Assembly (NCBI GenBank): GCA_022824225.1
Contig: JAJEAH010000028.1
Location: 65,766-129,765, forward strand
Direction: 5' to 3'
Source: Chloroflexota bacterium
Lineage (GTDB): Bacteria > Chloroflexota > UBA11872 > VXOZ01
Length of the DNA: 64,000 nt
The notes under the pieces are model-generated. The model saw only the letters and a list, made by a program, of their open reading frames with translations. It was not told the origin of the DNA and made no database searches. A program made the position numbers and the translations under genes. Below, one piece after another: positions 1 to 52,317 of the stretch (its first letter is position 1; each line of letters opens with the position of its first letter).

Positions 1-1968
1 AAGGGCGTGGGTCTGCGGCGTGGTGTGGGTAAACCAAAAGTAGTTGATGGCAATATGTGTGATGCCGTAATCCGCCATGGCAGTCGGGTCGAGCGCGTGG
101 AGAGCGTCAAAATATGTGGGGCCTGGATAGTGAAAGTTAGTAAATGAGAACCGATCGATGTTCTTGTGGGGCGCAAAGCCGCGAAGGAGCAATGGCACTT
201 CGGGAAATCGATTGGTAAGAACACGGGCGTCTGCAGGCAGGGCGCGAAGAAATTCGCGAGCTTCCGCCCCCATAAAGAAAGTGTAGTTGCGCCCGGTAAA
301 CCAGTTCAGGTTATCGCTTTGGCGGTGGAGAGGTGAAACTGTCCAATGGTCTTCGATGCGTTGACCTAAGGTTACGGACTGGACTAAGGCGACATTGCGG
401 GCAGAAACCGACAGCGGCCAGCCAATGGTGAGGGCTGCGCAGGCGGCGAAAAGCGTCCAGCTAAGCCAACGATGGCGTTGTTGCTTTGCCCGGGCGAGGA
501 GAACTATCCCAAGCAGGAGCGATAGCGAAGTAAGGCCGAAGCCTGACCAGCGTGAAAGAGTGGAGGAGTAGTGATAGGTGACGAAGTGTGGCAGGAGCAT
601 CCCAACCGCTCCGATAGCCGCCAGCCACGTCAAGTGGGTTAGGCATCGCACACGAAGGGTCCAGTAAACTGCAACTGGCGCGGCGACGAGGGGAACGCCA
701 AAAGAGGCGAGGTAAAGGACTGCCCAGGGCGGCGAACCGGGAAAGTGCGGAGCGGACGATGCCGATAGGAAGGATAAGGGCGATAGCGAGACTTGAAATG
801 CGTCGCCGAGACCAGTACCTCCCGAGGGCGAATGTAAGAAAACGGCCGAAAGGAATCCGCCCTGGACTACGGCCAATAGGGCAGCCGGTGTTGCCGCAAG
901 CGTGAACAGACCGATATGGACGCCCTTACGTTCGTTGTGGGAGCGCCAGAGTGCGAGTGCTCCCCAGCCCAGCAGTCCGAGAGCGAACAGTGAGACCTCG
1001 ATCAGGGCTACGCTCGCGTAGAGCACGCCAGCTAACACCCAGCGGGACCGATTCCATAGCAATGGGTAAGCGGCGCTTAAAGAACGAGGCAGGTGTGAAG
1101 CCAGAAAGACGACACTCAAGAGAATGCCCCACGCGAGCAAGAAGTGGGGCTGGGCCAAGTTAAGGGGAAAGCCGTCAAATTCGGTAGGTGTACTCCAGGC
1201 GTAGGTGTCTGTGAGTAGGTCTCTTGCCGCGGCGGAACTTGGCGGAAACCACCGGAGGTGCGCGGACTCCAAAAGGTCGGTGGGACCAGGCAGACCTGCA
1301 CCGAAGGAAAAGAAGAGACCGGCGAGCAATCCAAGCCTGACGCTTTGCAGTACCTTGGCGGCTAACATGGCAGCGGCAAGGTAGGCAGTTGTGGCCGCCA
1401 TTGGGGTCAGGATGAAGAAGACGATGGCGCTGTCAAGCTGTGTGAAATGGGCCAACATGGCCGCAAGAAAGGCGCCGCCATAGTGGTACTCGGCAAACAG
1501 GTTTGGGGCGCCCGGCGCCATCACGGGGAAATTGCCGAACCGAATCGTATTGGCGAGCCAAAAGTGAAGGTAATAGTCCCAAACGGGATAGACGGCGTAG
1601 TTTACGACACCGAGAAAGAGCACTACGGCGCCGGCGCAGACGAAGAATCCGGCGTCTACCCACGAGAGCGGCCGCAAGGGCCTGTAGTGGCGCCGGCGGG
1701 CGAAAGCGCTGAGCAAGGCGAGCGCGAGGACGGCAAGCAGTCCCCACACAAATGCGCGCGGCGTGCCCAGGACATACGCCAAGAGATTGGTGACAAGGAG
1801 CGTAGCGGCGAAACCGATTGGGAAGGCGGTGGCGGCCGCGGCGAGGGGTGAGCGGAGGCCGAAGGCGAAATAGACGAGCAGGAATCCGCTCAGGCCGATA
1901 CAGGCAAGCACGGCGAAGACGCGAGCGAGGTTTGGGACGATAGCAGGATCGACGGTGATGCTCAGCAT
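1..1968 (-). CDS. Large polytopic membrane protein, paralog A. N-terminal ~656 codons are in the window and the 3' end runs off the window start. The C-terminal domain is extracytoplasmic and the function is unknown (glycosyltransferase-like membrane fold is possible).
   Basis: ATG at 1968. The N-terminus MLSITVDPAIV... is nucleotide-identical to paralog B (1900-1968 matches 5752-5820). The hand-translated window edge gives ...SAMADYGITHIAINYFWFTHTTPQTHAL, matching paralog B residues. The frame is open to position 1, so it is not in the complete-ORF track. Confidence 0.7.
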   Translation of the reverse strand, partial: MLSITVDPAIVPNLARVFAVLACIGLSGFLLVYFAFGLRSPLAAAATAFPIGFAATLLVTNLLAYVLGTPRAFVWGLLAVLALALLSAFARRRHYRPLRPLSWVDAGFFVCAGAVVLFLGVVNYAVYPVWDYYLHFWLANTIRFGNFPVMAPGAPNLFAEYHYGGAFLAAMLAHFTQLDSAIVFFILTPMAATTAYLAAAMLAAKVLQSVRLGLLAGLFFSFGAGLPGPTDLLESAHLRWFPPSSAAARDLLTDTYAWSTPTEFDGFPLNLAQPHFLLAWGILLSVVFLASHLPRSLSAAYPLLWNRSRWVLAGVLYASVALIEVSLFALGLLGWGALALWRSHNERKGVHIGLFTLAATPAALLAVVQGGFLSAVFLHSPSGGTGLGDAFQVSLSPLSFLSASSAPHFPGSPPWAVLYLASFGVPLVAAPVAVYWTLRVRCLTHLTWLAAIGAVGMLLPHFVTYHYSSTLSRWSGFGLTSLSLLLGIVLLARAKQQRHRWLSWTLFAACAALTIGWPLSVSARNVALVQSVTLGQRIEDHWTVSPLHRQSDNLNWFTGRNYTFFMGAEAREFLRALPADARVLTNRFPEVPLLLRGFAPHKNIDRFSFTNFHYPGPTYFDALHALDPTAMADYGITHIAINYFWFTHTTPQTHAL

Positions 1969-2147
1969 GGAAACGGCACTCCGGCGGCGATGCCCTCATC
2001 TCTTGCCGCGAACAGGAGAGACCGTACACCGAACAGGAAGTATGTGAGGGGCGAGCCGCTCAAAGCCATTGCGCCTAGTGCGGCGCCGGCCCGCGTCAAA
2101 TTGAGCGCCAGTGTCGAGTCAATGGTGATGTTCAAGATCGAGGACAC
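1962..2147 (-). pseudogene. 61-codon remnant resembling the N-terminus of the large membrane-protein paralogs. Likely a decayed third copy.
   Basis: Translation MSSILNITIDSTLALNLTRAGAALGAMALSGSPLTYFLFGVRSLLFAA aligns with MLSITVDPAIVPNLARVFAVLACIGLSGFLLVYFAFGLRSPLAAA of the paralogs. It is too short to be functional. Confidence 0.3.
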
Positions 2148-2610
2148 GGTGAGGCGCTAACTCCCAAATCGACTAGTTTCGAGACTCCTTGCCACGCTAC
2201 TGACGAAATGTGGCAAAGACCTGTCCCTCTGAAGCAGGCATAGTCGCCGCAGGCGTAGGCGAGCCCGACGCGTTGCGTCTCACCGCCCAAGGGGCTCCAC
2301 TTGAGACAGAGACTTGCTTGACGAATGGACATTGTTGGCTAGGCAAGCAACGGCTGGACGTCCGGACAAGAGGACACGCGCAGATGCTGTTGGAATTGCT
2401 GTGAATACTGGTTGCCAAGTTGCTTGCGGTCGCGTCCGCCTCGCACACCGTCTACTGGCCGAATACCCAATCTGCACTGTAGGCCTTGCATCACCGCCTG
2501 TCCTCTATAAGGGGATTCTCTCTCGCCGCACAGTCTTGGGACTAGCCGACCGTGGGGTCGGACCGTCTCAGTGCAAGGCATGTGCTGGAAGTGCGCGCCT
2601 GGGTCAGATG

Positions 2611-5600
2611 CTAGTCCTGGCCGGAGGCTTGGTCAAGCAGGATGAAGCGGGGCGCCGGCAGCACAGTGGGCTCCTGGCCTGGCGCAGAGGTAAGCCAGGC
2701 GACGGGGATGCTCAGCACCCGTGCGCCCGGTTTGAACATCGACACGTAAAGGACATAGGGCTCACCGGGATTGGCTGGCAAGGGCCAGCGGGTGGCGACG
2801 GACGTTGGCTCGCCATAGGCATCAACTGTGGACGCCAAGGTCTCGAGGTCCAAAGTGAAGTGAAAGGTGTCGCCGTGTGTGGGTGGCCTATCCAACATCA
2901 AGCGCCACGTGCCGACGGAGTTCTTTGAATCCCAGTGCCACCAGTGGCCGTAGATGCGGCGTTGCTTTGATAGCTCAAACACGATCTGGTTTTCCAGGGA
3001 GTTTGCGCGCTCGCCATAGAGCTCTAACTTTACGTTGATATTCCTGCCGTCGAATGCGGACAGGATGTGCAGGGCGGGGACACCGGCTTGGACATCACTG
3101 TTGTTAGGTGGCACGCGCTGGGCTCGCACCCAGATTGAGTCAGGGGAAGTTACGGTAATCTCCGCCGCGTTGGTGGCGTCCAGAGGCAGGAGTGAAGCGC
3201 CGGGCGCCAGAATGAATTCTCGCGAACCGCCGGCAGCCGCAATGTTGATGCGGGAGGGTTGGGGCGAAAGCACGGTTAGGAGAACGGAGATGGTACTAGC
3301 TGCGGTTGCGTCGGTGTGCAGACAAGCGAAATCCAGCGTGGTGGGCGTGTTCGCCTGTATGTGCCAGGCGGGAGGAACACCGGCCAGCGATGGGCTGGGG
3401 CAGACGCGTTGGTCGAGCGCGTACAGTCCGACACCGAGCAAGTGCCAAATGCGTTGGGAAGGATGGAGCCCCCAGGCGGAAGGGAAGTCTTGCGGGGTCT
3501 GTTCCCAATTGAGCCAGCGGTCGCCGGGCGGTTCGTCGATAAGGAGGGCAAAGTCGTAGCGGTCGGTGGGTTGGGGCTCCGCAATATCGATGCGGACATT
3601 GATGTGGTTGTGGATGGACCCGGCGCTGGAGATTTCGCGTTCGCGAAGAGAATAGAGGAGCGCCCAGCGGATATCCGCTGGGATTGCCGGAGAGACGTAG
3701 ATAGAGGCCCCCTGCGGCACAAGACCGGGAAGCGAACGCACCAGGTCGCCGGTGGCGGCGGGAGTCTCTGCGTAGAAGGCGGGGAGGACTTCGTAGACAT
3801 GGTGCCAAGCGAAACCCTCGTGGAGTTCTTCATCGGAATAAAGAAGGGAGAAGTAGTGGGGGTCGCGCAGAAGGGCGGAAGTCTGCGGCGTGGTGTGGAC
3901 AAACCAGAAGTGGTTGATGACGATGTGTGTGATGCCATAGTCCGCCATGGCAGACGGGTCGAGCGCGTAGAGGGCATCGAGACAGGTGGGACTTGGCAGG
4001 TGAAAGTAGGTAAATGAGAAAAGGTCCGAGTTCTTGTGGGGAACAAAGCCGCGAGTGAGGAGGGGGACTTCAGGAAACCGATTGGTAAGAATGCGGGCGG
4101 AGGCAGGTAGAGCGCGCAAGAATTCGCGAGCCTCCGCACCCATCTGAAAGGTGTTGGGCCGACCCGTGATCCAGTCGACGTGGTCGCTTTGGCGGTGAAT
4201 TGGCGAAATCGTCCAGTGGTCCTCAGTGCTCTGGCCCAAGACTATCGCTGGCGCGTTGGTAACGTGCTTCACAGAAGTGACTATCGGCCATCCGACTGTC
4301 AATGCAGCGCAAGCCAGGAAGATCGGTAGCGCGAACGCCCGACGGCGCATGTGAACGGAGAGCTTCAAGGCACCGATGCCAAGGATAAGGGAGAATGAAG
4401 TTACCCCAAAACTATGCCACCGGACCATCGTATCGAAATAGTAGATGACGAAGTGGGGGGTTACGAATGCGATAGCACCGATGGCCGCGATCCAGACGAG
4501 AGATCCAGGATCTTTAGATCGAAAGAGCCAGAATAGGAGAATTGGCGCAGCGAGAAGGGGTAGGCCGAAGAGCAACGTGTAGACGGCTAGCCAAGGAGGT
4601 TCAGTTGCGTGATGGAGGTGTGGTGGGCCAAACATATAGGGCAAGGGCACGAAACCGAAAGCGAAGCTCGTGCCTAGGCCTGAACCGCCACCGAGGGTGT
4701 TCCGTAGCGTTGCCGTAACGAAGCCCCCCTGGAATACAGCGAGAATGATCACTGGCGTCAATGCCAGGAAGAAGCATCGGAACCAGGCAGAATCGCGTTG
4801 CCTCGCCGTGTGCCACAGGACGAATGTTCCCCATCCCGCCAGGCCAAGCGCAAAGACTGAGATTTCGATGAGGGCTACACTCGCGTAGAGCGCACCCAGC
4901 AACGGCCAAAGAATTGCTTTGGGCCCCAGCCCAGTCGCCATCAGGCTTCGTGACAACAGAATCACACTTAACAAGATCGCCCATGCAATGAGAAAGTGCG
5001 GCAGGAGCAGATAGAGCGGGAACGCGATGAATGCATTGGGGACGATGCTATTCAGTGAATCCGTGAGCATGGCCTGGGCGGCAGCGGACGAAGGCGGCAA
5101 CCATCTGAGGTAGAGATCTTTCACCGGTTCGATGAGAAAGGGCAAGCCCGCGGTGAACGAGAAGAAGAGTCCTGCCACCAGGCCGAGGCGAATGCTGCCG
5201 AGCACGTGGGCAGCCAGCATCGAGGCGCAGAGATAGGCAGCCATCGCCGCCAGCGGAGCCAGTATGAAAAACACGATTGCGCTGTCGAGCTGGCCAAAGT
5301 GTGAAAGCGCTGCGGCGATGAAGTCAATGCCATAGTGGTATTCGGCGTAGAGGTCCGGCGACCCTGGAGCCATTACGGGAAAGTTCCCAAAGCGGATGGT
5401 ATTCGCGAGCCAAAAGTGAACGTTGTAATCGGAAACCGGGTAGACCGCATTGTTGAACACGCTCAGGACGAAGACAGTGATCGCCGCAACGACAAAAAGA
5501 GAACAGTCAGTCCACGACAGTGGCCCCACGGACCTAAAGGAACCCCGGCGAGCGATTGCGCTGACCAGCGCGAGGGCGAGGACAGTGAGCAGTCCCCAGG

Positions 5601-5820
5601 CAAAGGCGCGGGGCGTGCCCAGGACATACGCCAAGAGATTGGTGACAAGGAGCGTTGCGGCAAAGCCGATGGGGAAAGCGGTGGCGGCCGCGGCGAGGGG
5701 AGAGCGGAGGCCGAAGGCGAAATAGACGAGCAGGAATCCGCTCAGGCCGATACAGGCAAGCACGGCGAAGACGCGAGCGAGGTTTGGGACGATAGCAGGA
5801 TCGACGGTAATGCTCAGCAT
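2611..5820 (-). CDS. Large polytopic membrane protein, paralog B (1069 aa). About 14 predicted TM helices in the N-terminal ~550 aa, then a large non-membrane C-terminal domain.
   Basis: Intact 3210-nt ORF. Hydrophobic helices throughout the N-terminal half. Roughly 80% nucleotide identity to paralog A over the shared portion. Confidence 0.75.
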   Translation of the reverse strand: MLSITVDPAIVPNLARVFAVLACIGLSGFLLVYFAFGLRSPLAAAATAFPIGFAATLLVTNLLAYVLGTPRAFAWGLLTVLALALVSAIARRGSFRSVGPLSWTDCSLFVVAAITVFVLSVFNNAVYPVSDYNVHFWLANTIRFGNFPVMAPGSPDLYAEYHYGIDFIAAALSHFGQLDSAIVFFILAPLAAMAAYLCASMLAAHVLGSIRLGLVAGLFFSFTAGLPFLIEPVKDLYLRWLPPSSAAAQAMLTDSLNSIVPNAFIAFPLYLLLPHFLIAWAILLSVILLSRSLMATGLGPKAILWPLLGALYASVALIEISVFALGLAGWGTFVLWHTARQRDSAWFRCFFLALTPVIILAVFQGGFVTATLRNTLGGGSGLGTSFAFGFVPLPYMFGPPHLHHATEPPWLAVYTLLFGLPLLAAPILLFWLFRSKDPGSLVWIAAIGAIAFVTPHFVIYYFDTMVRWHSFGVTSFSLILGIGALKLSVHMRRRAFALPIFLACAALTVGWPIVTSVKHVTNAPAIVLGQSTEDHWTISPIHRQSDHVDWITGRPNTFQMGAEAREFLRALPASARILTNRFPEVPLLTRGFVPHKNSDLFSFTYFHLPSPTCLDALYALDPSAMADYGITHIVINHFWFVHTTPQTSALLRDPHYFSLLYSDEELHEGFAWHHVYEVLPAFYAETPAATGDLVRSLPGLVPQGASIYVSPAIPADIRWALLYSLREREISSAGSIHNHINVRIDIAEPQPTDRYDFALLIDEPPGDRWLNWEQTPQDFPSAWGLHPSQRIWHLLGVGLYALDQRVCPSPSLAGVPPAWHIQANTPTTLDFACLHTDATAASTISVLLTVLSPQPSRINIAAAGGSREFILAPGASLLPLDATNAAEITVTSPDSIWVRAQRVPPNNSDVQAGVPALHILSAFDGRNINVKLELYGERANSLENQIVFELSKQRRIYGHWWHWDSKNSVGTWRLMLDRPPTHGDTFHFTLDLETLASTVDAYGEPTSVATRWPLPANPGEPYVLYVSMFKPGARVLSIPVAWLTSAPGQEPTVLPAPRFILLDQASGQD

Positions 5821-5891
5821 AGCTGGGAAACGACGCTTCGCACGCTCGCCCCTAGGATTCCTTCAATGGCGATGGGATAAATCATTCGTTG

Positions 5892-6197
5892 TCAACGGTG
5901 ACTGCGCCACGTCGGCGCCTGCCGCGCAAAGTACCGCAAGAACGCGCGGGCCCCCGCGTGGGTGGCGTGCAGGCGAACTACCGGCGTGACCAGGCGTTCG
6001 CGCGATATCGCGTCCGTCTGGGCTGCCAGGCGGGCCGCGTGGCCTTGTCCGGTATGCAGCACGTCACGGAGCGACGCCCGTATGCGCCGCACGATACTGG
6101 TGAGCACGAGTGTCAGCAGCAAGACGAGCACCGTGCCCAGCAGTGCCTCGATGACGAGCACGAGGATGGCGATGTCCCGCCAATGCGCCAGGGTCAT
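5892..6197 (-). CDS. Small membrane protein, DUF948-like
   Basis: 101-aa ORF with a single N-terminal TM helix (HWRDIAILVLVIEALLGTVLVLLLTLVL). It resembles the paralog at 6421-6720, and the arrangement with a YtxH-like gene is typical. Confidence 0.5.
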   Translation of the reverse strand: MTLAHWRDIAILVLVIEALLGTVLVLLLTLVLTSIVRRIRASLRDVLHTGQGHAARLAAQTDAISRERLVTPVVRLHATHAGARAFLRYFARQAPTWRSHR

Positions 6198-6204
6198 GCC
6201 GCCC

Positions 6205-6402
6205 TCACTGCGTAGCTGCCTCGTAGCGAGCCATCAGTTCGTCTTCGGTCTCCTTGGCTGCCTGCGCCGCTTCCTGTTTGGCCATGTCTATCTGGCGGCG
6301 CACGCTTTCCCGGAACGATTCCCCGCTGCTGGGCGCCAGCAAGCCGCCGGCCACCACACCCAGCGAGATTCCCGCAACAAATCCAACCGCGAACCCAAGC
6401 AT
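6205..6402 (-). CDS. YtxH-like small membrane-anchored protein
   Basis: 65-aa ORF: N-terminal TM (GFAVGFVAGISLGVVAGGLLAP) followed by a charged coiled tail. This is the typical partner of DUF948 genes. Confidence 0.5.
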   Translation of the reverse strand: MLGFAVGFVAGISLGVVAGGLLAPSSGESFRESVRRQIDMAKQEAAQAAKETEDELMARYEAATQ

Positions 6403-6420
6403 GTGGGTGAGCTCCTTGTG

Positions 6421-6720
6421 CTAGTTTCTCTTCAAGCGGGCAACGGTGGCTGCCAACGTGCGGGCAAAGCGCAGTGCGCCGGCAGTTCTGCCCGCCGCCC
6501 TGGCGGAGGGCCGGACAAGGGCTTCACTGACGAATTGCGTTGTGCCCTTGACCGTGTTGCTCGTCTCAGTGAGCGATTTGAGGAGCGGCTTGATCTCTTC
6601 CTGGATTGTGCCGGCCAGCCGCACCACCGACAAGACCAGAAAGAGGACAGAAAACGCCATGAGCGCGGAAACGAGCGCAAGCACGATGACCGCTATGTCG
6701 CGAATTTCACCCAGGCTCAC
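6421..6720 (-). CDS. Small membrane protein, DUF948-like
   Basis: 99-aa ORF MSLGEIRDIAVIVLALVSALMAFSVLFLVLSVV... with an N-terminal TM and a helical tail. Paralogous to 5892-6197. Confidence 0.55.
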   Translation of the reverse strand: MSLGEIRDIAVIVLALVSALMAFSVLFLVLSVVRLAGTIQEEIKPLLKSLTETSNTVKGTTQFVSEALVRPSARAAGRTAGALRFARTLAATVARLKRN

Positions 6721-6846
6721 GGCCCCGATCCTTTCTGAGCGGACTCCAATATTGCCGCAACCACGTCATAGTTTAGTATAGGCATAGCCGGGGGGCCGCG
6801 CACGTGACAGAGGCGACGCCAGCAGCTACAGGGCTAACAGTGAAGC

Positions 6847-9303
6847 TCAATTCGCGGGCCGAGGGGACGCCAATGCTTTGCGGCCGCGGCGCAGAAATGG
6901 AATGATGCGCCGGATAGCTAGCACAATTCCCCGGCGGTGCAACCGCCAGCGCAAACGACTCCAGGCCTTGGTCACTGACTTTCTCTGCTGTTTGGTGATG
7001 CCCTCTGCGCTGTAGAGAGACTCTGCATACGTAGCGCAAATCGCCCGCACGTCGGCGTCCGGGAAGCGCTGGCTGGCAGCCGCTCGCATCTCGGTGAGCA
7101 GGCGCGTGGCGTATTCATGGGGAGTGAGGGCGGACGAGGCTGGAATGCCGGCCAATTTGCCAGCCCGCACTAGCTTGCGGTACACGTGCCGCACCATCTG
7201 GTGGGGGTTCATGCGTCGTTCCTGCACGTACCCGTAGCCGAACCAGCCCACCACGATTAAGAGAATGGCTACGAAGAACGGCCTGAGATCGGGCAGTTCC
7301 GGCACGTCGACGCCGAGAATGTTCGTGCCCGGAACGGCGCCGCCGGCCGCGGCCACGATGCCGGTAGCCAAGAGTTCTTCCTCGCCGAGTTCATCGTAGA
7401 ATTCGTCCAGTTCGGGGTTGGGCGAACCGCTGATTTCGCTCGCCAGGATACCGCGGTCGATGGGCGCTTGGTTCGGGCTCGGTTCAAAGGGAATCCAGCC
7501 CAAGCCGGCAAAGTAGACCTCAGGCCACGTGTGCGCCTGCTTCTCGGTCACGACGAACCGTCTTTCAGACACGTCATAGCGGCCAGTGGCAAACCCCACC
7601 GCCAGGCGCGCCGGCACGCCGGCGGTCCGCAGCATCACCACCATCGTGCTGGCGTAGTAGTCGGCGTAGCCGCGTTTCGCCTCGAACAGGAAGTAGTCCA
7701 CCGCGTCCTTATCCTGGGGCGGCGGCGGTATCGCAATGGAATAGGGGATGCGCCGCAGGAAGAGCTCGATTGCCAGAGCCTTCTCATATTGCGAATCTTT
7801 GCCGCGCACTACCGTCTTGGTCAGGTCCACAACGCGCTCCGGCAGCCTGGGCGTTTGCAGATAGCGGCGGATCTCGTCCGGCACGTCCCCCTGGGCATTC
7901 AGCATCTGGTCTTCGGTGGCAGTGGTAACCAGACTCTCCAGTGTATACTCCAGATCGGGCACAGCCACGCGGCGGGCGCGCAAGAGATCATAGTCCTGGA
8001 GCGAGTCTGCCGACGCAACCTGTACCCGATAGGGGATGTTGATGTTCGTTGGGAAGTCCGGGGCAAAGATGATGTCGCTCGGGCTATCCACGATGCGGAA
8101 GGAAAACGTCGCCGGGCGCCGGTAGCTCACCGGCGGCGGTGGTATGGGTTCTTCTTCAGCGCGCCGGTCCAGCAGCGTGCCGCTGGTGTTGTACCACGTA
8201 TACCCGGTATAGGCGTCAAAGGTTGCGCCCCGCCAGTAGCCGTTGAAATTGCTCTCATCCGTGGTGACGTACATACGGTAGGGTTGGCTGAAACGGCGCG
8301 GCCCGCTGAAGAGGCGGTTGTCGGAGCCCAGGATGAGCCCCACGCCGCTTGGATTCTGAATGCCGGAAAAGAGCCGCTTCGTGGTATTGTCCAGCTCGGC
8401 CCACTCGCTGCCGAAAATCGTCCAAAACGTCTCCGAAATCGGATTGCTGCCAACCCGCGGCGCCATCGTTGCCATAAACGTAAGCGCTGTTGTCAAGATG
8501 ACACTCGCAATCAAGACGTCCAGGCCAACTTCCGTGGCGTAGTCCAGCTTGCGCGATTCCCAGCGCTTCTGCAGGTTGTGCAGATTCAACCGCACCATCA
8601 AGAGCAAGGTAGCCGCCAAGAAGAGAATGAACGGCCAGCGGCCCTGTCCGGAATATGCCAGGTTGATCACCATGGCGACGCCGGGAACGAGCGCGGCCAC
8701 GAGAATGTCGTTGTGGCGGAAGAAGCCCCAGGTGGCAATGTAGCCGATGGCCCACCCCACCAGCGCGATCCAGAAGACGAACACGCCGTTGTCTTCCGAA
8801 TACGTGCCGCTGATGCCGGCCCGTGTCCAGTCCACCAGCCGCACGCCGAAGTCGCTGGCGTTGGTGACGAACGTGGCGACCGCATCGATGGGCGGGATGG
8901 GCTGAGATACGCCGCCGCCGCTGAGCAGACCGCCAATGGCCCCGAGAATCCACGTGAGCGTATTTAACACGAGCGCCAGCGCGTCCTGTGCGATGCTGTT
9001 CATGGGGGGCACTGATTCGCTCACCAGCAGGAAGCAGTAGGCAATGCCGACTACGCCGCCGAGCAGCCAGCCCAAGCGCGCGCTGGCGCGCGTGTGGGCG
9101 ACAATGAAGCCGATCACCATGCCCAGAATGGCCGTGGGGAAGATGGCGTCGGTACCGGTTGCCCAGCCTGACTGGTGGATTGCCCAGGAACTCACCAAGG
9201 ACATAGAGGCCAAGAGCAAGAGCGTGAGCCAATGCCTGAGCAAGGTAGACAGCAGGTTTGGCCGTTCTTCTTCAGTCGGGTCTGAGCTAGGATCAATTGC
9301 CAT
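6847..9303 (-). CDS. Transglutaminase-like domain membrane protein (DUF3488 / TGase / DUF4129 architecture). The predicted catalytic triad looks degenerate.
   Basis: N-terminal multi-TM region, then a TGase-core-like segment GYADYYASTMVVMLRTAGVPARLAVGF...QAHTWPEVYFAGLGWIPFEPS. I chose the start at the ATG (9303) that overlaps the DUF58 stop codon, rather than the longer upstream ORF. Confidence 0.75.
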   Translation of the reverse strand: MAIDPSSDPTEEERPNLLSTLLRHWLTLLLLASMSLVSSWAIHQSGWATGTDAIFPTAILGMVIGFIVAHTRASARLGWLLGGVVGIAYCFLLVSESVPPMNSIAQDALALVLNTLTWILGAIGGLLSGGGVSQPIPPIDAVATFVTNASDFGVRLVDWTRAGISGTYSEDNGVFVFWIALVGWAIGYIATWGFFRHNDILVAALVPGVAMVINLAYSGQGRWPFILFLAATLLLMVRLNLHNLQKRWESRKLDYATEVGLDVLIASVILTTALTFMATMAPRVGSNPISETFWTIFGSEWAELDNTTKRLFSGIQNPSGVGLILGSDNRLFSGPRRFSQPYRMYVTTDESNFNGYWRGATFDAYTGYTWYNTSGTLLDRRAEEEPIPPPPVSYRRPATFSFRIVDSPSDIIFAPDFPTNINIPYRVQVASADSLQDYDLLRARRVAVPDLEYTLESLVTTATEDQMLNAQGDVPDEIRRYLQTPRLPERVVDLTKTVVRGKDSQYEKALAIELFLRRIPYSIAIPPPPQDKDAVDYFLFEAKRGYADYYASTMVVMLRTAGVPARLAVGFATGRYDVSERRFVVTEKQAHTWPEVYFAGLGWIPFEPSPNQAPIDRGILASEISGSPNPELDEFYDELGEEELLATGIVAAAGGAVPGTNILGVDVPELPDLRPFFVAILLIVVGWFGYGYVQERRMNPHQMVRHVYRKLVRAGKLAGIPASSALTPHEYATRLLTEMRAAASQRFPDADVRAICATYAESLYSAEGITKQQRKSVTKAWSRLRWRLHRRGIVLAIRRIIPFLRRGRKALASPRPAN

Positions 9304-10618
9304 GATTTTGCTCCGCGCCAACACTATGCACACGGCCGGTTGCGGTGGTTTCCACCGTCTGGGCGCGCCTCCGGGTATCTTCGTCGCCTTTCTCAAGTGC
9401 GATGGTTCGGAATTCCTGGCCCTGCTCGATCTCGATATAGGATATGCCGGCGGAGCCAAGCGCCTGCTGCAATGGCGCGCTATCCTTGGCGCTGGCAAAC
9501 GTCTGCGGCACCATGTGCAACACGGTGGGGCGAATGCCTCGCCGTGAAACGTTGACCAAGACCGGCGCCAGATCCGGGTCGGTGCTGGGCGTAATCACGA
9601 TGAGGCTCATGCTACCCCGAATCTGAGGCGTCACTTCACCCAAGACCTGGCCCAAGTCCTCCGTGCCCTGCGCGCGCACCACCGCCAAAATCTCCATGAT
9701 GCGCCACATGTGCTGGCTGCCCTTGTTCGCGCGCAGAGCGCGCTGCTCGGCGCCGTAGGTAATGAGGCCGATGGACTTCTGCTCCCGGATCAAGCGGTAT
9801 ACCAGCGCGGCGGCCAGCTTCACGCCGTACTCCTCGGTGGATTCGTCGCCCTCGCCGGCTTGCACGGCGCCATCGAGATCCAGGACGATCCACGTGCTGC
9901 CCCCAGGCTCCAGGTCGAATTCCTTGGATTGCAAGCGGCCGCGCCGGGCAGTGGTGGGCCAGTGGATGATGTGCAGCGCGTCGCCCGGGACGAATTCGCG
10001 GACGCTGGCGGCGTCTGTGGTGAGGTGCAAGGCGCGCCGCAGCGAGCGAGATTCGCCGGTCTGCCGGCCGGTTGGCAGCGCCAGGCCCGGCACTTCGGTG
10101 ATAGGCGGATAGACGAGAAACGTGGCTTGGTCCGGCAGCACTTTCGTGGCGCGGAAGATGCCGAATGGATCGCCCGTGTAGACGCGCAAAGGCCCCAACC
10201 GGTAGAGTCCCCGCCGGGTGCACATAGCCCGGGTCTTCCACTCTCGGTGCTCACGGGGTCCCAAGCCGGTGACCATGCCGGCTTCGTAGCCCGGCACGTC
10301 GGAGTGGTCGTTTACTTCCACCCAGAGCACGGGCAGCGCGCCGGCATTGGCAACGCGGAACGTCTCGATGACCTCGTCGCCCAGGGTAGCCCACTTGGAG
10401 AGCAAATGGCGCTCAACGGAGAGGTTGCGGATGTTGCGGGTGGTCCAGAAGTAGCTCAAGCCGATCAGGCCGAGCATGGCGTAGAGGAACGAATAGAGGA
10501 CGTTGATGCCGGAAATGAGGGCAGCCACCAACATACCCGCCGTCAGCACAAAGATGAGCGGTCGCTCTAACTGAACTTGGACCGAACCTTGTTCTGCCTG
10601 ACGAGTAGCGTCTTCCAT
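9293..10618 (-). CDS. DUF58 domain protein (vWA-like; usual partner of MoxR and transglutaminase genes)
   Basis: Two N-terminal TM helices and the diagnostic DUF58 motif REFVPGDALHIIHWPTTARRGRLQSKEF. Its stop overlaps the downstream TGase start, indicating translational coupling. Confidence 0.8.
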   Translation of the reverse strand: MEDATRQAEQGSVQVQLERPLIFVLTAGMLVAALISGINVLYSFLYAMLGLIGLSYFWTTRNIRNLSVERHLLSKWATLGDEVIETFRVANAGALPVLWVEVNDHSDVPGYEAGMVTGLGPREHREWKTRAMCTRRGLYRLGPLRVYTGDPFGIFRATKVLPDQATFLVYPPITEVPGLALPTGRQTGESRSLRRALHLTTDAASVREFVPGDALHIIHWPTTARRGRLQSKEFDLEPGGSTWIVLDLDGAVQAGEGDESTEEYGVKLAAALVYRLIREQKSIGLITYGAEQRALRANKGSQHMWRIMEILAVVRAQGTEDLGQVLGEVTPQIRGSMSLIVITPSTDPDLAPVLVNVSRRGIRPTVLHMVPQTFASAKDSAPLQQALGSAGISYIEIEQGQEFRTIALEKGDEDTRRRAQTVETTATGRVHSVGAEQNHGN

Positions 10619-10901
10619 GCCGTTCCGCCCGCCTGCCTATCGTTGGCCGCCACCGCGCATTATTCTTCACTATAACCCAAACCATTCGCAGTTCGCACCG
10701 CTCGCAGTCACATAGCGCAGTTTGGCCGTCTCCTTCAGACTGCCGGTGAGCGATGTGCGCGGCTGCGCGCTTTGCCCTCGTATAGATTGGGTTGTAAGGC
10801 CTGTCCGTGTGCTACCATTTAACTGAGCGCAAAGCCCTGAGTCCGTGATGCGCACGGCTTTCGGCTTACGGATGCAATTGGTTTAGGAGGAATTCAGAAA
10901 C

Positions 10902-12164
10902 GTGGCCGTTCAAGAGACATTGACCGGACTGGATAGTCTCGCCCAGCAAGACCCGGCAATCTACGAGTGGATAGTCAAAGAGCGTCAACGCCAGGAAGAC
11001 CACCTGGAGCTTATCGCCTCCGAGAACTACACGAGCGCCGCGGTGCGTGAGGCCTGCGGCTCGATCCTAACGAACAAGTATGCGGAAGGCTATCCGGGTC
11101 GGCGCTACTACGGCGGCTGCGAGTTTGTCGATGAGATCGAGCAGTTGGCCATCGATCGCGCCAAGCGGCTTTTCGGCGCCGAGCACGCTAACGTGCAACC
11201 GTACTCCGGCTCCAATCCCAATGCCGCCGTCTACTTGGCCATGCTGGAGCCGGGCGACACGGTTATGGGCATGTCCCTGGCCCAGGGCGGGCACCTCACC
11301 CACGGGCATCCGAAGAATTTCTCCGGTCTCGTCTATAATTTCGTGCCCTATGGCGTGAATCTGGAGACGGAACGCATCGACTACGACGAGGTGGAGCGCA
11401 TTGCGCAGAATTGCCAGCCCCGCCTCATCGTCGGCGGCGCGACGGCGTATTCCCGCACCATCGATTTTGCCCGCCTGCGGCAGATAGCCGATGGTGTCGG
11501 CGCCCTGTTCATGGTGGACATGGCGCACATCGCGGGGCTGGTGGCAACCGGTCACCATCGCAGCCCGGTGCCCCACGCCCACTTCGTGACGTCATCCACC
11601 CACAAAACCCTGCGCGGCCCGCGCGGCGGGCTAATCCTGTGCCGCGAGGAATTCGCCAAGAAAGTGGACAGCGCAATCTTCCCCGGTCTGCAGGGCGGAC
11701 CCTTCATGCACATCATGGCGGGCAAGGCGGTGGCCCTGGCCGAGGCGATGACACCGGAGTTCAAGGCATACGGCGAGGCCGTCGTGGCGAATGCGCAGGT
11801 ATTGGCTACAACCCTCATGGAGAACGGCTTGCGGGTGGTATCCGGCGGCACGGAAAACCACCTGATGGTGGTGGACTTCGGCCAGGACGGGCCGTCCGGC
11901 AAGGTGGTCGAAGCGGCGCTGGCCAAGGCCAATATCACGGTGAACAAGAACACGGTACCGCGCGAAACGCGCTCGGCGTTCGTGTCGAGCGGCGTGCGCA
12001 TCGGGTCCCCCGCCGTCACCACGCGCGGCATGGGCGTGCCGGAAATGGCGCGCATCGGCCGCGGCATTGCCGAGGTTGTGCACAACCGCAGGGACGCGGC
12101 TGCGCTCGCGCGTGTACAGCAAGACGTGCTCGACCTCTGCGGCGCCTTCCCCGCACCGGTATGA
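10902..12164 (+). CDS. glyA: Serine hydroxymethyltransferase
   Basis: Full-length SHMT with hallmarks ([16 protein letters not shown]-lysine region; LIASENYTS). GTG start preceded by a TAGGAGGA ribosome-binding site. Confidence 0.95.
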
Positions 12165-12348
12165 CCGTTCTGAAGTCTGTGTGTAGGCACAGCGAACTCC
12201 CGAAAGAGTGCTCTTTAACGTTCTTTGCGGTTGTAGGTGTTGACGCTGCGCTCTCGTCGGCGTAGGGTGAGAGCAAAGAGCAACTGCGCGTTTCGAGTTC
12301 CGGTGATTGGATCGGCGGGGCCGCGCGCGGGAAGTTTCAAGGGAAACG

Positions 12349-13556
12349 CCATGCAACGTGTACTGAAAACTCTCAGCCTCTTGGCATTTGCTGTCCTCGT
12401 ATTCGCCCCGCTCACGCCGGCACTCGGCGTCCAGGCCGCGAGCAGACTTGCGCGCGGAGCGGTCATTTCCCTTGAGGATACGCCCCACCTCTGGTTTGCC
12501 GACGAAGCGGGAGTCCTGCATTGGGGCGGCGATACCCGCGCGCTTGCCGGCCGCTACATCAATTGGAATTTGTACGCAGTGGTGAGCCTCGCGGAACTCC
12601 AGGCCTTTGAGATTGGCGATCCCTGGCTTACTGCCGGACTCATCAAGGAGGGCGACCCGATCTACCTCGTCAAGTGGGAGACGGACTGGGCCGAGCCAAA
12701 GCTCCTGCACATTCAGTCCTGGAGCGATGCTGAGATCTTTGGCCTGAGCGGCAGCAACTATGGGAATTTCGTTTACGATATCCCAACGTGGGAGGCCGAA
12801 TACGGGCTTGCGGTCAGCGGACTTACGCGCTCGCCATTGGCGCCGGCCACACCGCCTGTTGATTCCACGCCACACTCAGTGCCGGGAACGCCGCTTAGTC
12901 TGGAGGCAGTGCTGCAACGCTTGGCTTCACTGACGACCGACGACGATGATGACGACGACGATGGCGACGCAACCGACACGGCAACCGCCACCGCCACGGC
13001 TACGGCAACCGGGAGCCAGACCGCCACCGCAACCGCGACGGCGACTGACGACGGTACATCTTTGACGGTGACCGCAACGGACGATACGGCGGACTATCAG
13101 AATGTGCTCACGGCTACTGCCACCGACACGGCGACGGCGACCGGCGATCAAACGGCGACAGCCACGGCCACGGCCACTGACGACGGTACATCCGTGACGG
13201 TGACCGAAACGGACGATACACCGCAGCAGCCGCAGCCACGGAATGAGCTCACGCCAACGGCTACCGACACGGCAACGGCCACGGCCACGAACGGACTGAC
13301 GGCGACGGCCACGGCCACGGCGACTGACGACGGCACCTCCGTGACCGTGACTGAAACGGACGACACGCCGGAGAATCTGGTAACGACAACGGCGACCGAT
13401 ACGGCAACCGCTACGGCCACGGGGGATCAAACGGCGACGGCCACGGCCACGGCGACCGACGACGGCACGTCCGTGACGATCACCGCGACCGATCCTACCG
13501 ACGATACCCTAACCGCTACCGACACAGACGTGAGCGGGAGTACCGATAGCGGCTAG
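12349..13556 (+). CDS. Secreted protein with a C-terminal Thr/Ala-rich tandem-repeat region
   Basis: Signal peptide MQRVLKTLSLLAFAVLVFAPLTPALGVQAAS, an ~190-aa globular region, a poly-Asp stretch, then four ~45-aa repeats (TATATATATDDGTSVTVTETDDTP...). Start chosen at the signal-peptide ATG within the longer ORF. Confidence 0.6.
12940..13540 (+). repeat. Coding tandem repeat, about 4 x ~130 nt, encoding (TA)n-DDGTSVTVTETDDTP units
   Basis: Direct nucleotide and amino-acid periodicity is visible in the sequence (gacgacggtacatc...gtgaccg... units recur). Confidence 0.8.
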
Positions 13557-26962: not shown

Positions 26963-27982
26963 ATGCGCGTTACATCCGTAGACATCGTGCCGTGGAAAGA
27001 TGACGCTACGTTCGTCTATTCGGTGGTATTTGACGAAGGCACCATCGACTGTTTGGCGAATGCGTTTCCCATCGCGCAGCAGTACGAGATTCTGGGCGAC
27101 GTGGCGGTGGTTGCCGGACAACTGGGTGAGAAGCGCCACGTCGAGCGCAGTTCGCTGAACGACTACTTCCACATGGGCCCGGAGCACCTTAAGTTTCTCC
27201 TGTCCCAGGGCTGGAGCGTGAGCAATCACAGCTATTCGCACCCGCCGCTGCGCGACCCCAGTAGTATTGACTACGAACAAGAGATCGTGGAGTCCTACCA
27301 CGTGCTGGAGCGCGCCCTCGGGCAGCCGGTACCGGTCTTCTCCTCGTGGAACAGCTTTGAGGTGTATGACACCGTGCGCGCGTGGGTGGAGCGCACGCCG
27401 GGCTACCTTGCACTCACGCGCGCCTCGAACGACGCCGAACACATTAACGGCCCCGACTTTGATCCCTTCAGCATCTGGCGCAACCGTCTCTGCGAAGACG
27501 ATGAAATCGAGTATCTGCTGCCCTGGCTCTCGCGCCGTGGGTTCGAGCCGGAACGCGTGCAGGGAAAGTGGCTGGTCGACGTCACGCACCTGGTCATGTA
27601 CAAGACGCCGCAGGGGCATAAGTGCATCTCGCCCTATGCGCTGGAGGGACGCTTCGATCAGATGCGCACGCTCTTTGGCGATAGCATGTGGGCAGCAAAC
27701 CCCGATGACGTGGTGCGCTACGCCTACCTGCGCAGGCACTGTACGCCTATTGTCGAGCAGCCTTCGCAAGCGCGGGCGACGATCTCTGTGGAGTTCTCTC
27801 GGTTGCCGCCGCAGACTGCGGAGGGACAGTTGACGTTTGTGCTTGCCTTTGCCGATGACCCCGGTACGGTGGAGGTAAGAGGGCCGGATGGGGCGGTGCA
27901 GACCACGCCCGCCGGCGAACGACGGCTGCGCTTTACGTGCCGGGTGAATCCCGGAGCGGAGCTAGAGGTTACTGCCCGCTAG
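26963..27982 (+). CDS. Polysaccharide deacetylase (NodB-homology / CE4-like) family protein
   Basis: NodB-like motifs (FDEGTIDC...HSYSHPPL). Preferred over the overlapping antisense ORF 26942-27769. Confidence 0.7.
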   Translation: MRVTSVDIVPWKDDATFVYSVVFDEGTIDCLANAFPIAQQYEILGDVAVVAGQLGEKRHVERSSLNDYFHMGPEHLKFLLSQGWSVSNHSYSHPPLRDPSSIDYEQEIVESYHVLERALGQPVPVFSSWNSFEVYDTVRAWVERTPGYLALTRASNDAEHINGPDFDPFSIWRNRLCEDDEIEYLLPWLSRRGFEPERVQGKWLVDVTHLVMYKTPQGHKCISPYALEGRFDQMRTLFGDSMWAANPDDVVRYAYLRRHCTPIVEQPSQARATISVEFSRLPPQTAEGQLTFVLAFADDPGTVEVRGPDGAVQTTPAGERRLRFTCRVNPGAELEVTAR

Positions 27983-39712: not shown

Positions 39713-40105
39713 GGCATCCTCACTTCGCGACTGATTCATTCACGAACTCTACCCAAGCCTCTACTCAAGCAAAGTGCTTGACTATCACCATTATGCACGC
39801 CAATTTGCGGTAGTCAAGGAACAAGACCGGCTACGTGCGGCATTTCGCCTCAAAGAGTGGGGTTCGCGGGCGAGATTGCCGGCGGCGCAGAAATCTGCAA
39901 GCGCGGCACGGGAGTCTGTGGCCCGGCGCCGAAATCTTCGGCGCGGCGCCAGAATCTTCGGCGGGTTGAGCACTGGTGACAGGTCAGGGACTCAAAGCGG
40001 CGCCGCTTGCCGAAGGGGAGCTGTGGAGCGCGAGAGGGGCGCAGGTATACTCCTGTGCCCCTCTTGGCGAAGCGTGTGTTGCGCCGGTGCCATTGACAGG
40101 GAGGG

Positions 40106-50698: not shown

Positions 50699-50701
50699 AT
50701 A

Positions 50702-51490: not shown

Positions 51491-51501
51491 GCTGATTTGG
51501 C

Positions 51502-52314: not shown

Positions 52315-52317
52315 CCT

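What the first reader, a model, noticed from the sequence alone, without database searches (positions are those of the whole stretch)
1..5820. Tandem duplicated ~1070-aa polytopic membrane-protein genes, plus a 5' remnant of a third copy
Gene 2611-5820 and the partial gene <1-1968 are colinear paralogs with long stretches of nucleotide identity. For example 1900-1968 matches 5752-5820, and 1-263 matches 3880-4142 at about 80%. A 61-codon fragment at 1962-2147 resembles their N-terminus.

Each protein has ~14 TM helices followed by a ~500-aa non-membrane domain. That architecture recalls membrane glycosyltransferase or YfhO-like proteins, but I cannot assign a family.

Repeated local duplication of a 3.2-kb gene is unusual and suggests rapidly evolving envelope functions.
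Basis: seen in the sequence. Interest (0 to 1): 0.5.

Follow-up and report, generated by a model that had tools for sequence, protein, structure and literature searches.

The report
Tandem GT-C membrane glycosyltransferase paralogs
The left end of this window, from an uncultured Chloroflexota bacterium, holds two of three old tandem copies of a 1,070-residue membrane protein that is an unannotated member of the GT-C glycosyltransferase superfamily; the copies keep exchanging sequence at their ends, which makes this a modest extension of a known enzyme class, not a new kind of system.

Summary
Gene B (2611-5820, minus strand, 1069 aa) and the truncated gene A (1-1968, minus strand) are colinear paralogs with 62% amino-acid identity. 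Their first 73 residues are identical.

A is not disrupted. Its 656 residues are identical to the start of a 1076-aa database protein. A sibling strain (98% nt identity) carries three intact copies of 1069, 1076 and 1079 aa.

The duplication is old: silent sites are saturated in the central part of the genes. Newer gene-conversion tracts overlie both gene ends, and one arose after the two strains split. Related species carry 1, 2 or 3 copies at the same site.

The 61-codon fragment (1962-2147) is the 5' end of a copy-3-type gene (83% aa identity over 48 residues).

Best reading: these are extracytoplasmic glycosyltransferases that use a polyprenyl-phosphate-sugar donor and carry C-terminal beta-sandwich domains that may bind glycan. 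This resembles the mycobacterial embCAB arrangement. Donor and acceptor are unknown.

The parts
2611..5820 (-). Gene B, copy 1 of the array: 1069-aa GT-C-fold membrane protein, intact
1..1968 (-). 5' 656 codons of gene A, copy 2; the gene runs off the left end of the window
   Evidence: The frame is open from ATG 1968 to base 1. It is 62% identical to B. It is 100% identical to residues 1-656 of the 1076-aa protein P0002. The orthologous copy in sibling strain L001 is intact.
1962..2147 (-). 61-codon ORF (GTG to TGA). Its first ~48 codons (2004-2147), plus about 20 nt upstream, are the 5' end of a copy-3-type paralog. Its stop overlaps A's start codon (ATGCTGA).
   Evidence: It is 81% nt identical over 154 nt to the 5' end of L001 copy 3 and 83% aa identical over 48 residues. 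Against copy 3, pN is 0.078 and pS is 0.51. It is also present in L001, with an in-frame 3-nt deletion. It is absent from the one- and two-copy loci.
2148..2610 (-). Non-coding spacer between copy 1 and the fragment
   Evidence: It is 100% identical to L001 13211-13673 and has no match in any other locus. It has no Rfam match. The only promoter-like match here (2636-2608) overlaps the 3' end and stop codon of gene B and is no more than the shuffles give; no terminator-like site lies in the spacer.
5602..5820 (-). 5' gene-conversion tract in B; its partner in A is 1750-1968
   Evidence: The two are 95.9% nt identical. Third-codon-position identity is 97%, 80% and 70% in codons 1-30, 31-60 and 61-90, against 20-47% in the interior (codons 91-540).
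5329..5430 (-). Codons 131-164 of B: the conserved extracytoplasmic loop motif D-x3-H-x2-LA-x-TI-x2-GNFP-x3-P-x2-P-x5-YHYG, proposed as the active-site loop
   Evidence: D131, P148, P155, Y161 and H162 are conserved in at least 90% of the distant relatives. The motif aligns with the E...PP.D...YYYxG motif of DUF2298 proteins. In the model the loop follows helix 103-126 and contains helices 132-143 and 164-176.
4255..5820 (-). Codons 1-522 of B: membrane domain of about 14 helices
3751..4254 (-). Codons 523-690 of B: membrane-proximal alpha/beta domain, shared with DUF2298 proteins
2614..3750 (-). Codons 691-1069 of B: a linker region and two beta-sandwich domains, candidate glycan-binding modules specific to this lineage
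   Evidence: The strands at residues 819-1061 have mostly pLDDT 80-93. Foldseek gives weak matches to the beta-sandwich domains of GH2 glycosidases and to a putative carbohydrate-binding protein (E about 1e-2). Almost no representative outside the close family matches beyond position 770.
5892..6720 (-). Three small co-directional genes (101 aa; 65 aa YtxH-like; 99 aa) immediately upstream of the array. They are conserved neighbours whose relation to the array is unknown.
   Evidence: They are ORFs. The 65-aa protein matches Pfam YtxH at E = 1e-9. The same trio precedes the array in L001, L002 and L006.

Best explanation
The region holds copy 1 and the first 60% of copy 2 of a three-gene tandem array. 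Copy 3 lies just off the left edge of the window.

The genes encode about 1,075-aa GT-C-fold integral-membrane glycosyltransferases. They belong to an unannotated family that is a distant sister of DUF2298 / Chlor_Arch_YYY.

**Inferred mechanism**
- The membrane domain of about 14 helices binds a polyprenyl-phosphate-linked sugar at the outer face of the cytoplasmic membrane.
- The conserved loop after helix 4 (D131 ... GNFP ... YHYG), together with QGG364-366 and R467, forms the active site.
- The sugar is transferred to an extracytoplasmic acceptor. The membrane-proximal alpha/beta domain and the two C-terminal beta-sandwich domains would hold that acceptor, which is most likely an envelope polysaccharide.

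**Evolution**
- The three copies are old paralogs. They probably differ in donor or acceptor specificity, or work as hetero-oligomers as EmbA-EmbB do.
- The 61-codon fragment is a duplication or deletion scar. Either a single tandem duplication ran from just upstream of a type-I gene to codon ~50 of the following type-III gene, or an internal type-III copy was later deleted.
- Copies 1 and 2 are kept partly alike by ongoing gene conversion at their 5' and 3' ends.

**Shown:** paralogy, array structure, conversion tracts, GT-C fold, homology to DUF2298.
**Inferred:** catalytic activity, lipid-linked donor, glycan acceptor, division of labour among the copies.
For: **Array**
- Window 1-13392 is colinear with L001 at 97.9% nt identity, and L001 carries three intact copies of 1069, 1076 and 1079 aa.
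- A is 100% identical to the first 656 aa of the 1076-aa protein P0002.
- Related species have one copy (L002, L004, L005) or two (L003, L006) at the same syntenic site.

**Age and conversion**
- Silent third-position identity between copies 1 and 2 is 0.84 in codons 1-60, 0.30-0.50 in codons 121-600, 0.64-0.85 in codons 601-840 and 0.93-0.98 in codons 961-1076. Copy 3 stays at 0.32-0.65 against both other copies, with no near-identical tract.
- The last ~300 nt (alignment columns 2851-3150) are 97-100% identical between L001 copies 1 and 2, but window B is only 85-90% identical to either. That conversion therefore happened after the strains split.

**Family**
- There are 247 cluster representatives at E <= 1e-3.
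- D131, P148, P155, Y161, H162, G365 and R467 are conserved across relatives of about 20% identity.
- The family profile reaches genuine DUF2298 proteins at E = 3e-6 to 2e-4.
- hhalign gives 95.2% for the close family and 99.5%, E = 3e-22, over 562 columns for the broad family.

**Fold**
- The model has pLDDT 82.3 and pTM 0.85.
- Foldseek: STT3, AglB, DPY19 and AftA at E = 2e-6 to 6e-4.
- The poor first model gave the same families.

**Context**
- A Dpm1-like 238-aa GT2 lies divergently next to the single-copy ortholog. I read it as a candidate polyprenyl-phosphate sugar synthase.
- Distant relatives sit inside polysaccharide gene clusters: GT2, GT4, Wzx, epimerase and sulfotransferase around P0191, and GT2, methyltransferase and epimerase near P0188.
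- GT-C enzymes that carry beta-sandwich CBMs binding the acceptor glycan are documented (GT136 ORF12, EmbC, AftD; PMC11127046).
Against: - There is no biochemical evidence for this family or for DUF2298. A literature search found only passing mentions of DUF2298.
- The acidic residue at position 131 is Ser in 4 of the 29 close family members. It may therefore not be the catalytic base, or those copies may be inactive.
- The motif loop follows the fourth helix, not the first as in canonical GT-C enzymes.
- The 64-kb window contains no Dpm1-like GT2 and is not a glycan gene cluster.
- The beta-sandwich domains match carbohydrate-related domains only weakly (E about 1e-2).
Confidence: 0.65

Rival explanations
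1. Same fold and same donor chemistry, but the acceptor is protein. On this reading the enzymes are oligosaccharyl- or mannosyl-transferase-like and glycosylate S-layer or other secreted proteins of this Chloroflexota lineage.
Against: No STT3 or PMT Pfam match was found for B. There is no WWDYG-type motif after the last helix; the only similar string (HWWHWD, residues 959-964) lies in a low-confidence loop of the distal beta-sandwich. AftA and ArnT, which modify glycan or lipid, score as high as the oligosaccharyltransferases. Distant relatives sit in polysaccharide clusters.
Confidence: 0.2
2. The proteins have the GT-C fold but are not enzymes. They would be scaffold or substrate-holding subunits, as PIG-U and GAB1 are in GPI transamidase. 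Alternatively only one copy is catalytic and the others are regulatory partners.
Against: All three copies of this strain's array keep D131, the GNFP and YHYG motifs, QGG and R467. Those residues are conserved down to about 20% identity, which is the pattern expected of an active site. Genuine transferases score well above PIG-U and GAB1.
Confidence: 0.1
3. The apparent duplication is an assembly artefact, produced by a collapsed or duplicated contig end or a chimera of strains.
For: The window starts inside copy 2. The first 219 nt of the two genes are 96% identical.
Against: The copies are only 62% identical in protein and are saturated at silent sites internally. The same order, spacer and fragment are found in an independent assembly (L001). 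Multi-copy arrays occur in complete ~3.5-Mb chromosomes of related species.
Confidence: 0.01
4. The 61-codon fragment is not a dead scar. It would be a translated upstream mini-ORF encoding one transmembrane helix. It keeps the translation start of a copy-3-type gene and ends on A's start codon (ATGCTGA), coupling or tuning the translation of copy 2.
For: Against copy 3, pN/pS is 0.15 (8 non-synonymous and 21 synonymous differences over 48 codons). That is far fewer replacements than a long-dead fragment should have. The reading frame is open to a stop that overlaps A's ATG. The only indel between the two strains is in frame. Similarity to copy 3 includes about 20 nt upstream of the GTG.
Against: The evidence rests on only 48 codons. 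A recent deletion of a previously intact gene would give the same pN/pS. A has its own GGAG 10 nt upstream of its ATG (read), so coupling is not needed. The fragment is seen in only two near-identical strains.
Confidence: 0.15

Closest known systems
DUF2298 (Pfam PF10060) / Chlor_Arch_YYY domain (TIGR03662); the TIGR accession, the motif name and GT-C clan membership are from memory
   Same: Profile-profile homology covers B residues 76-681 against a whole DUF2298 protein (99.5%, E = 3e-22). The two share a loop motif: an acidic residue, then [FL]PP/NFP...P, then YYYxG/YHYG. They also share a membrane-proximal C-terminal domain. Both are found in Chloroflexota.
   Different: B does not match the Pfam or NCBIfam models even at E <= 1. 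The motif is YHYG, not YYYxG. B carries about 385 extra C-terminal residues with beta-sandwich domains. DUF2298 itself has no known function.
GT-C(A) glycosyltransferases with solved structures: AftA, STT3/AglB/PglB, ArnT, ALG9/ALG12, PMTs, AftD
   Different: Sequence identity is 6-11%, and there is no sequence-level match to any solved chain. Four helices, not one, precede the motif loop. The family-specific motifs of these enzymes (for example WWDYG of the oligosaccharyltransferases) are absent.
Mycobacterial embCAB: three tandem ~1,090-aa GT-C arabinosyltransferase paralogs with C-terminal CBMs, where EmbA-EmbB form a heterodimer. The operon layout is from my own knowledge; the CBMs are cited in PMC11127046; the EmbA-EmbB complex is PDB 7bvf.
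   Same: Three adjacent, co-oriented paralogs of nearly the same length (1069, 1076 and 1079 aa). Each has a polytopic GT-C membrane domain followed by beta-sandwich extracytoplasmic domains. This is a plausible model for division of labour or hetero-oligomers.
Three-component extracytoplasmic glycosylation systems: a polyprenyl-phosphate sugar synthase, a flippase and a GT-C enzyme (Gtr, ArnC/ArnT, GT136; PMC11127046)
   Same: The GT-C enzyme has a C-terminal beta-rich domain. A Dpm1-like GT2 lies next to the single-copy ortholog in L002, L004 and L005.
   Different: No flippase gene was identified. The GT2 is absent from the fetched sequence of the multi-copy loci: the 64-kb window, 23 kb of L001 and 23 kb of L003. 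The system is therefore not encoded as a unit here.

Membership tests
GT-C glycosyltransferase superfamily (GT-C_A fold) | Polytopic membrane domain of 7-13 or more helices whose three-dimensional structure superposes on solved GT-C enzymes | tested here: met
GT-C glycosyltransferase superfamily (GT-C_A fold) | Conserved catalytic Asp/Glu at the start of the first extracytoplasmic loop, which carries two juxtamembrane helices (feature as described in PMC11127046) | tested here: inconclusive
   D131 follows helix 103-126 and precedes the short helices 132-143 and 164-176. It is conserved in at least 90% of distant relatives and aligns with Glu in DUF2298. However, it comes after the fourth helix, and it is Ser in 4 of the 29 close members. 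The outward orientation is inferred only from the positive-inside rule (RRGSFR in the loop before helix 4).
GT-C glycosyltransferase superfamily (GT-C_A fold) | Uses a lipid-phosphate-linked sugar donor on the extracytoplasmic face | not testable with these tools
   Only indirect evidence exists: a Dpm1-like GT2 beside the ortholog in L002, and polysaccharide clusters around distant relatives.
DUF2298 (PF10060) / Chlor_Arch_YYY | Match to the family HMM above its curated threshold | tested here: not met
   Neither A nor B matches PF10060 or any NCBIfam model at E <= 1. Only 4 of 61 distant relatives give weak DUF2298 hits (best E = 6e-5).
DUF2298 (PF10060) / Chlor_Arch_YYY | Homology detectable by profile-profile comparison, together with the YYYxG loop motif | tested here: met
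   hhalign gives 95.2% (A1) and 99.5%, E = 3e-22, over 562 columns (A4) against five DUF2298 sequences. The motif is present as the variant YHYG.
Oligosaccharyltransferases STT3/AglB/PglB (GT66) | WWDYG-type motif in the soluble domain directly after the last helix, and a match to the STT3 HMM | tested here: not met
   There is no STT3 Pfam hit. No WWD motif occurs in residues 523-700 (sequence). HWWHWD at 959-964 lies in a different domain, in a loop with pLDDT below 50.
   The Pfam scan at E <= 1 returned only two sub-threshold hits to unrelated families (DUF5652, bCoV_NAB) for B and none for A.
Emb/Aft arabinosyltransferases (GT53 and relatives) | Sequence-family membership; closest structural neighbour | tested here: not met

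The most novel reading that the evidence does not exclude
The array encodes a previously undescribed GT-C family with a lineage-specific double beta-sandwich C-terminus. Its three paralogs would assemble into a hetero-oligomeric machine, in the manner of EmbA/EmbB, that builds or decorates an unknown envelope glycan or glycoprotein peculiar to this Chloroflexota lineage. Gene conversion would keep the ends of the proteins (helices 1-3 and the last beta-sandwich) matched as interfaces, while the central helices diverge in specificity. The retained 61-codon fragment would be a translated leader that tunes expression of copy 2. If DUF2298-type proteins turned out to be the missing protein-glycosylating enzymes of Chloroflexota and some Archaea, this family would give a first handle on them.
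Probability: 0.12. Interest if true: 0.6.

Novelty: new member of a known kind. Interest (0 to 1): 0.33.

Why it matters
This family has 247 cluster representatives at E <= 1e-3 but no Pfam, NCBIfam or PDB annotation. The work here places it in the GT-C superfamily, next to the equally uncharacterised DUF2298 group.

That gives a testable function for large "hypothetical" membrane proteins of uncultured Chloroflexota: extracytoplasmic glycosylation from a lipid-linked donor. It also names candidate active-site residues (D131, H162, R467).

The array is a clean natural example of old tandem paralogs undergoing mosaic gene conversion, with one event datable to after the split of two strains. It is otherwise an ordinary kind of locus, and nothing suggests a new biological principle.

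Tried and rejected
- **Pfam and NCBIfam scans of A and B:** no usable hit.
- **PDB sequence search with the family profile:** nothing, even at E <= 10.
- **Exact look-up of B and of P0002 in the contig index:** not on record. The leftward extension came from sibling strain L001 and from the identity of A to P0002 instead.
- **The afdb50 fold library:** unavailable.
- **Rfam and promoter/terminator scans of 1-7000:** nothing above chance.
- **Search for the Dpm1-like GT2 in the window, L001 and L003:** absent from the fetched sequence.
- **Pfam survey of 30 other window genes:** ordinary metabolic and transport genes, not a glycan cluster.
- **Literature:** no paper characterises DUF2298, and none links Chloroflexota with GT-C enzymes.
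- **Assembly artefact:** rejected (see rival explanations).
- **Oligosaccharyltransferase membership:** rejected because the motif is missing.
- **Recent duplication:** rejected because silent sites are saturated.
Full report
**1. What is in the sequence**

On the minus strand, 2611-5820 is an intact 1069-codon ORF, gene B. The frame that starts at ATG 1968 stays open to base 1 (656 codons), which is gene A.

BLASTP of A against B gives 62% identity over 656 residues with 6 gaps, and the first 73 residues are identical.

At nucleotide level:
- 1900-1968 against 5752-5820 is 98.6% identical.
- 1750-1968 against 5602-5820 is 95.9% identical.
Bases 1-263 pair with 3871-4133 (79.5%), not with 3880-4142. 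At that offset identity is 31%, which is no better than random offsets (mean 26%, maximum 34%).

The 61-codon ORF at 1962-2147 exists and resembles the family N-terminus.

**2. Extending the window**

Window 1-13392 is colinear with a metagenome scaffold of a sibling strain (L001) at 97.9% nt identity.

That scaffold carries three intact, co-oriented copies of 1069, 1076 and 1079 aa. They lie between a DUF58 / TgpA-transglutaminase / three-small-gene block and a pyridine-nucleotide-disulfide oxidoreductase gene.

The 656 residues of A are 100% identical to the start of P0002, a 1076-aa protein on a 170,455-nt contig. A copy-3-type protein (P0197, 1079 aa) is recorded on a contig of the same length.

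Paralog A is therefore intact, and a full third copy lies just beyond the left edge of the window.

Related Chloroflexota genomes of about 3.5 Mb carry one copy (L002, L004, L005) or two (L003, L006) at the same syntenic position.

**3. History of the array**

*The duplication is old.* Between A and B, third-codon-position identity is 97%, 80% and 70% in codons 1-30, 31-60 and 61-90. It then falls to 20-47% through codon 540, which means silent sites are saturated.

*Conversion tracts overlie it.* The table gives identity at silent third positions between full-length copies 1 and 2 of L001.

| Codons | Silent third-position identity |
|---|---|
| 1-60 | 0.84 |
| 121-600 | 0.30-0.50 |
| 601-840 | 0.64-0.85 |
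| 961-1076 | 0.93-0.98 |

Copy 3 stays at 0.32-0.65 against both other copies throughout, with no near-identical tract. By domain, copies 1 and 2 are 72-85% identical everywhere except helices 5-14, where they are 49% identical. This mosaic indicates gene conversion laid over an old duplication.

*Conversion is still happening.* Over the last ~300 nt (alignment columns 2851-3150), L001 copies 1 and 2 are 97-100% identical to each other. Window gene B is only 85-90% identical to either. This shows up as a cluster of 31 mismatches at 2751-3000 in an otherwise near-identical strain comparison. That conversion therefore happened after the two strains separated.

*Tree.* A neighbour-joining tree puts copy 3 (P0029) in a deep clade with one copy of the two-copy species (P0026, P0028). 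Copies 1 and 2 fall together. That grouping may be inflated by the conversion.

**4. The 61-codon fragment**

It is not a degenerate copy of A or B.
- It is 81% nt identical over 154 nt to the 5' end of copy 3, including about 20 nt upstream of copy 3's GTG start.
- It is 83% aa identical over 48 residues, E = 2e-19.
- Homology stops at codon ~48. About 40 unrelated nucleotides follow, and then A's ATG, which the fragment's TGA overlaps (ATGCTGA).

The simplest history is one tandem duplication whose unit ran from just upstream of a type-I gene to codon ~50 of the following type-III gene. That gives I, III-fragment, I, III, which is exactly the order seen. The alternative is a four-gene array from which an internal type-III copy was later deleted.

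Against copy 3 the fragment shows 21 synonymous and 8 non-synonymous differences (pS 0.51, pN 0.078). That is too few replacements for a long-dead fragment. Either the truncation is recent or the mini-ORF is still translated; I rate the second at about 15%. The fragment is found only in the window and in L001.

**5. What the protein is**

*Sequence searches.*
- The indexed search finds only 31 clusters, nearly all of about 1,075 aa and at least 50% identical. All lack Pfam domains and informative names (the only source name given is "hypothetical protein").
- An exhaustive HMM search finds 247 representatives at E <= 1e-3. Most are 640-680-aa proteins that cover the membrane domain. Some are 770-1,050 aa and also cover positions up to about 770.
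- Across these relatives of about 20% identity, the conserved residues are D131, P148, P155, Y161, H162, G365 and R467. The consensus is D-x3-H-x2-LA-x-TI-x2-GNFP-x3-P-x2-P-x5-YHYG, plus QGG.

*Link to DUF2298.*
- Four of 61 distant relatives give weak DUF2298 hits.
- The broad profile retrieves genuine DUF2298 proteins at E = 3e-6 to 2e-4.
- hhalign against five DUF2298 sequences gives 95.2% for the close family. For the broad family it gives 99.5%, E = 3e-22, over 562 columns, covering B residues 76-681 and the whole of a DUF2298 protein including its soluble C-terminal domain.
- The DUF2298 motif (E...LPPxD...YYYxG) is the visible counterpart of the motif here.

*Structure.*
- With the deeper alignment the AlphaFold model is confident (pLDDT 82.3, pTM 0.85).
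- Foldseek agrees.
- Residues 819-1061 form two beta-sandwiches. They resemble the beta-sandwich domains of GH2 glycosidases and a putative carbohydrate-binding protein only weakly.

**6. Mechanism: shown and inferred**

Shown: the GT-C fold, homology to DUF2298, and a conserved loop with an acidic residue after a helix that is preceded by a positively charged loop (RRGSFR).

Inferred from established GT-C biochemistry (summarised in PMC11127046):
- The enzyme takes a sugar from a polyprenyl-phosphate carrier at the outer face of the membrane.
- It transfers the sugar to an extracytoplasmic acceptor.
- The C-terminal beta-sandwich domains act like the CBMs of EmbC, AftD and GT136.

Context gives modest support. 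A Dpm1-like GT2 sits beside the single-copy ortholog. Distant relatives lie inside polysaccharide clusters that include GT2, GT4, Wzx, epimerase and sulfotransferase genes.

Cautions:
- Position 131 is Ser in four close relatives.
- The motif loop follows helix 4, not helix 1.
- The window has no donor-synthase gene and no glycan cluster.

All three copies of this strain's array keep every conserved residue, so all are probably active. Their strongest divergence is in helices 5-14. I would expect donor and acceptor specificity to be set in that region.

**7. Comparison with what is known**

At family level this is an unannotated sister of DUF2298. It fails the Pfam and NCBIfam models but passes profile-profile homology.

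At superfamily level it is a GT-C_A enzyme.

At system level the closest analogue is mycobacterial embCAB: three tandem ~1,090-aa GT-C paralogs with CBMs, two of which form a heterodimer (my own knowledge; the EmbA-EmbB complex appears).

**8. Verdict**

This is a real array of three old paralogs from a new family within a known superfamily, with ongoing gene conversion between copies and a duplication scar. It is useful as an annotation and as a small case study in evolution, but it is not a new kind of system.

Interest 0.33. Novelty: new member of a known kind.

Noticed in passing
window 48844-53106 (+): A second local duplication. An ABC ATPase gene (48844-49905) is followed by four consecutive ABC2_membrane_6 permease genes of 285, 262, 270 and 262 aa. 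Their match strength to the Pfam model alternates, which suggests a duplicated gene pair. The region 50-54 kb has the lowest GC in the window (0.56-0.57 against about 0.62) and a strong negative AT skew.
   Followed up: partly
window 5892-6720 (-); L001 9102-9929; L002 8012-8831; L006 7085-7907: Three small co-directional genes (about 99 aa; 65 aa YtxH-like; 98-101 aa) always sit immediately upstream of the GT-C array, whatever its copy number. Only 72 nt separate the last of them from gene B, so they may be co-transcribed. Two of the three have no family assignment.
   Followed up: partly
window 2148-2610 and 1-2500, compared with L001: Divergence between the window and the sibling strain is very patchy. 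There are 0-2 mismatches per 250 nt over most of 1-2500 and 3501-6000, but 20-31 per 250 nt at 2751-3000, 7001-7250 and 10501-11500. The 463-nt non-coding spacer is 100% identical. This is the pattern expected from recombination between strains and gene conversion, not from uniform drift.
   Followed up: partly
window 2935-2952 (-), residues 959-964 of gene B: The string HWWHWD lies within a conserved KQRRIYGHWWHW segment and superficially recalls the WWDYG motif of oligosaccharyltransferases. It sits in a low-confidence loop of the distal beta-sandwich, not next to the membrane domain. Probably a coincidence.
   Followed up: no
L002 21215-23228; also L003 and L005: A genuine DUF2298 gene (798 aa) lies about 8 kb downstream of the single-copy family member in related genomes. 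These bacteria therefore carry both the canonical DUF2298 protein and this divergent sister family.
   Followed up: no
L006 8001-11243 (P0022); also P0018, P0021 and P0027: One clade of paralogs has Ser-Ser in place of the conserved Asp/Glu-containing dipeptide at positions 130-131, while keeping GNFP, YHYG, QGG and R467. These may be inactive or mechanistically different copies.
   Followed up: partly
window 38396-39739 (-), 55975-57237 (-), 26963-27982 (+), 60596-61894 (-): Sugar-related genes are scattered through the window: two DegT/DnrJ/EryC1 aminotransferases, a polysaccharide deacetylase and an alpha-L-fucosidase. They are not clustered with the array.
   Followed up: no
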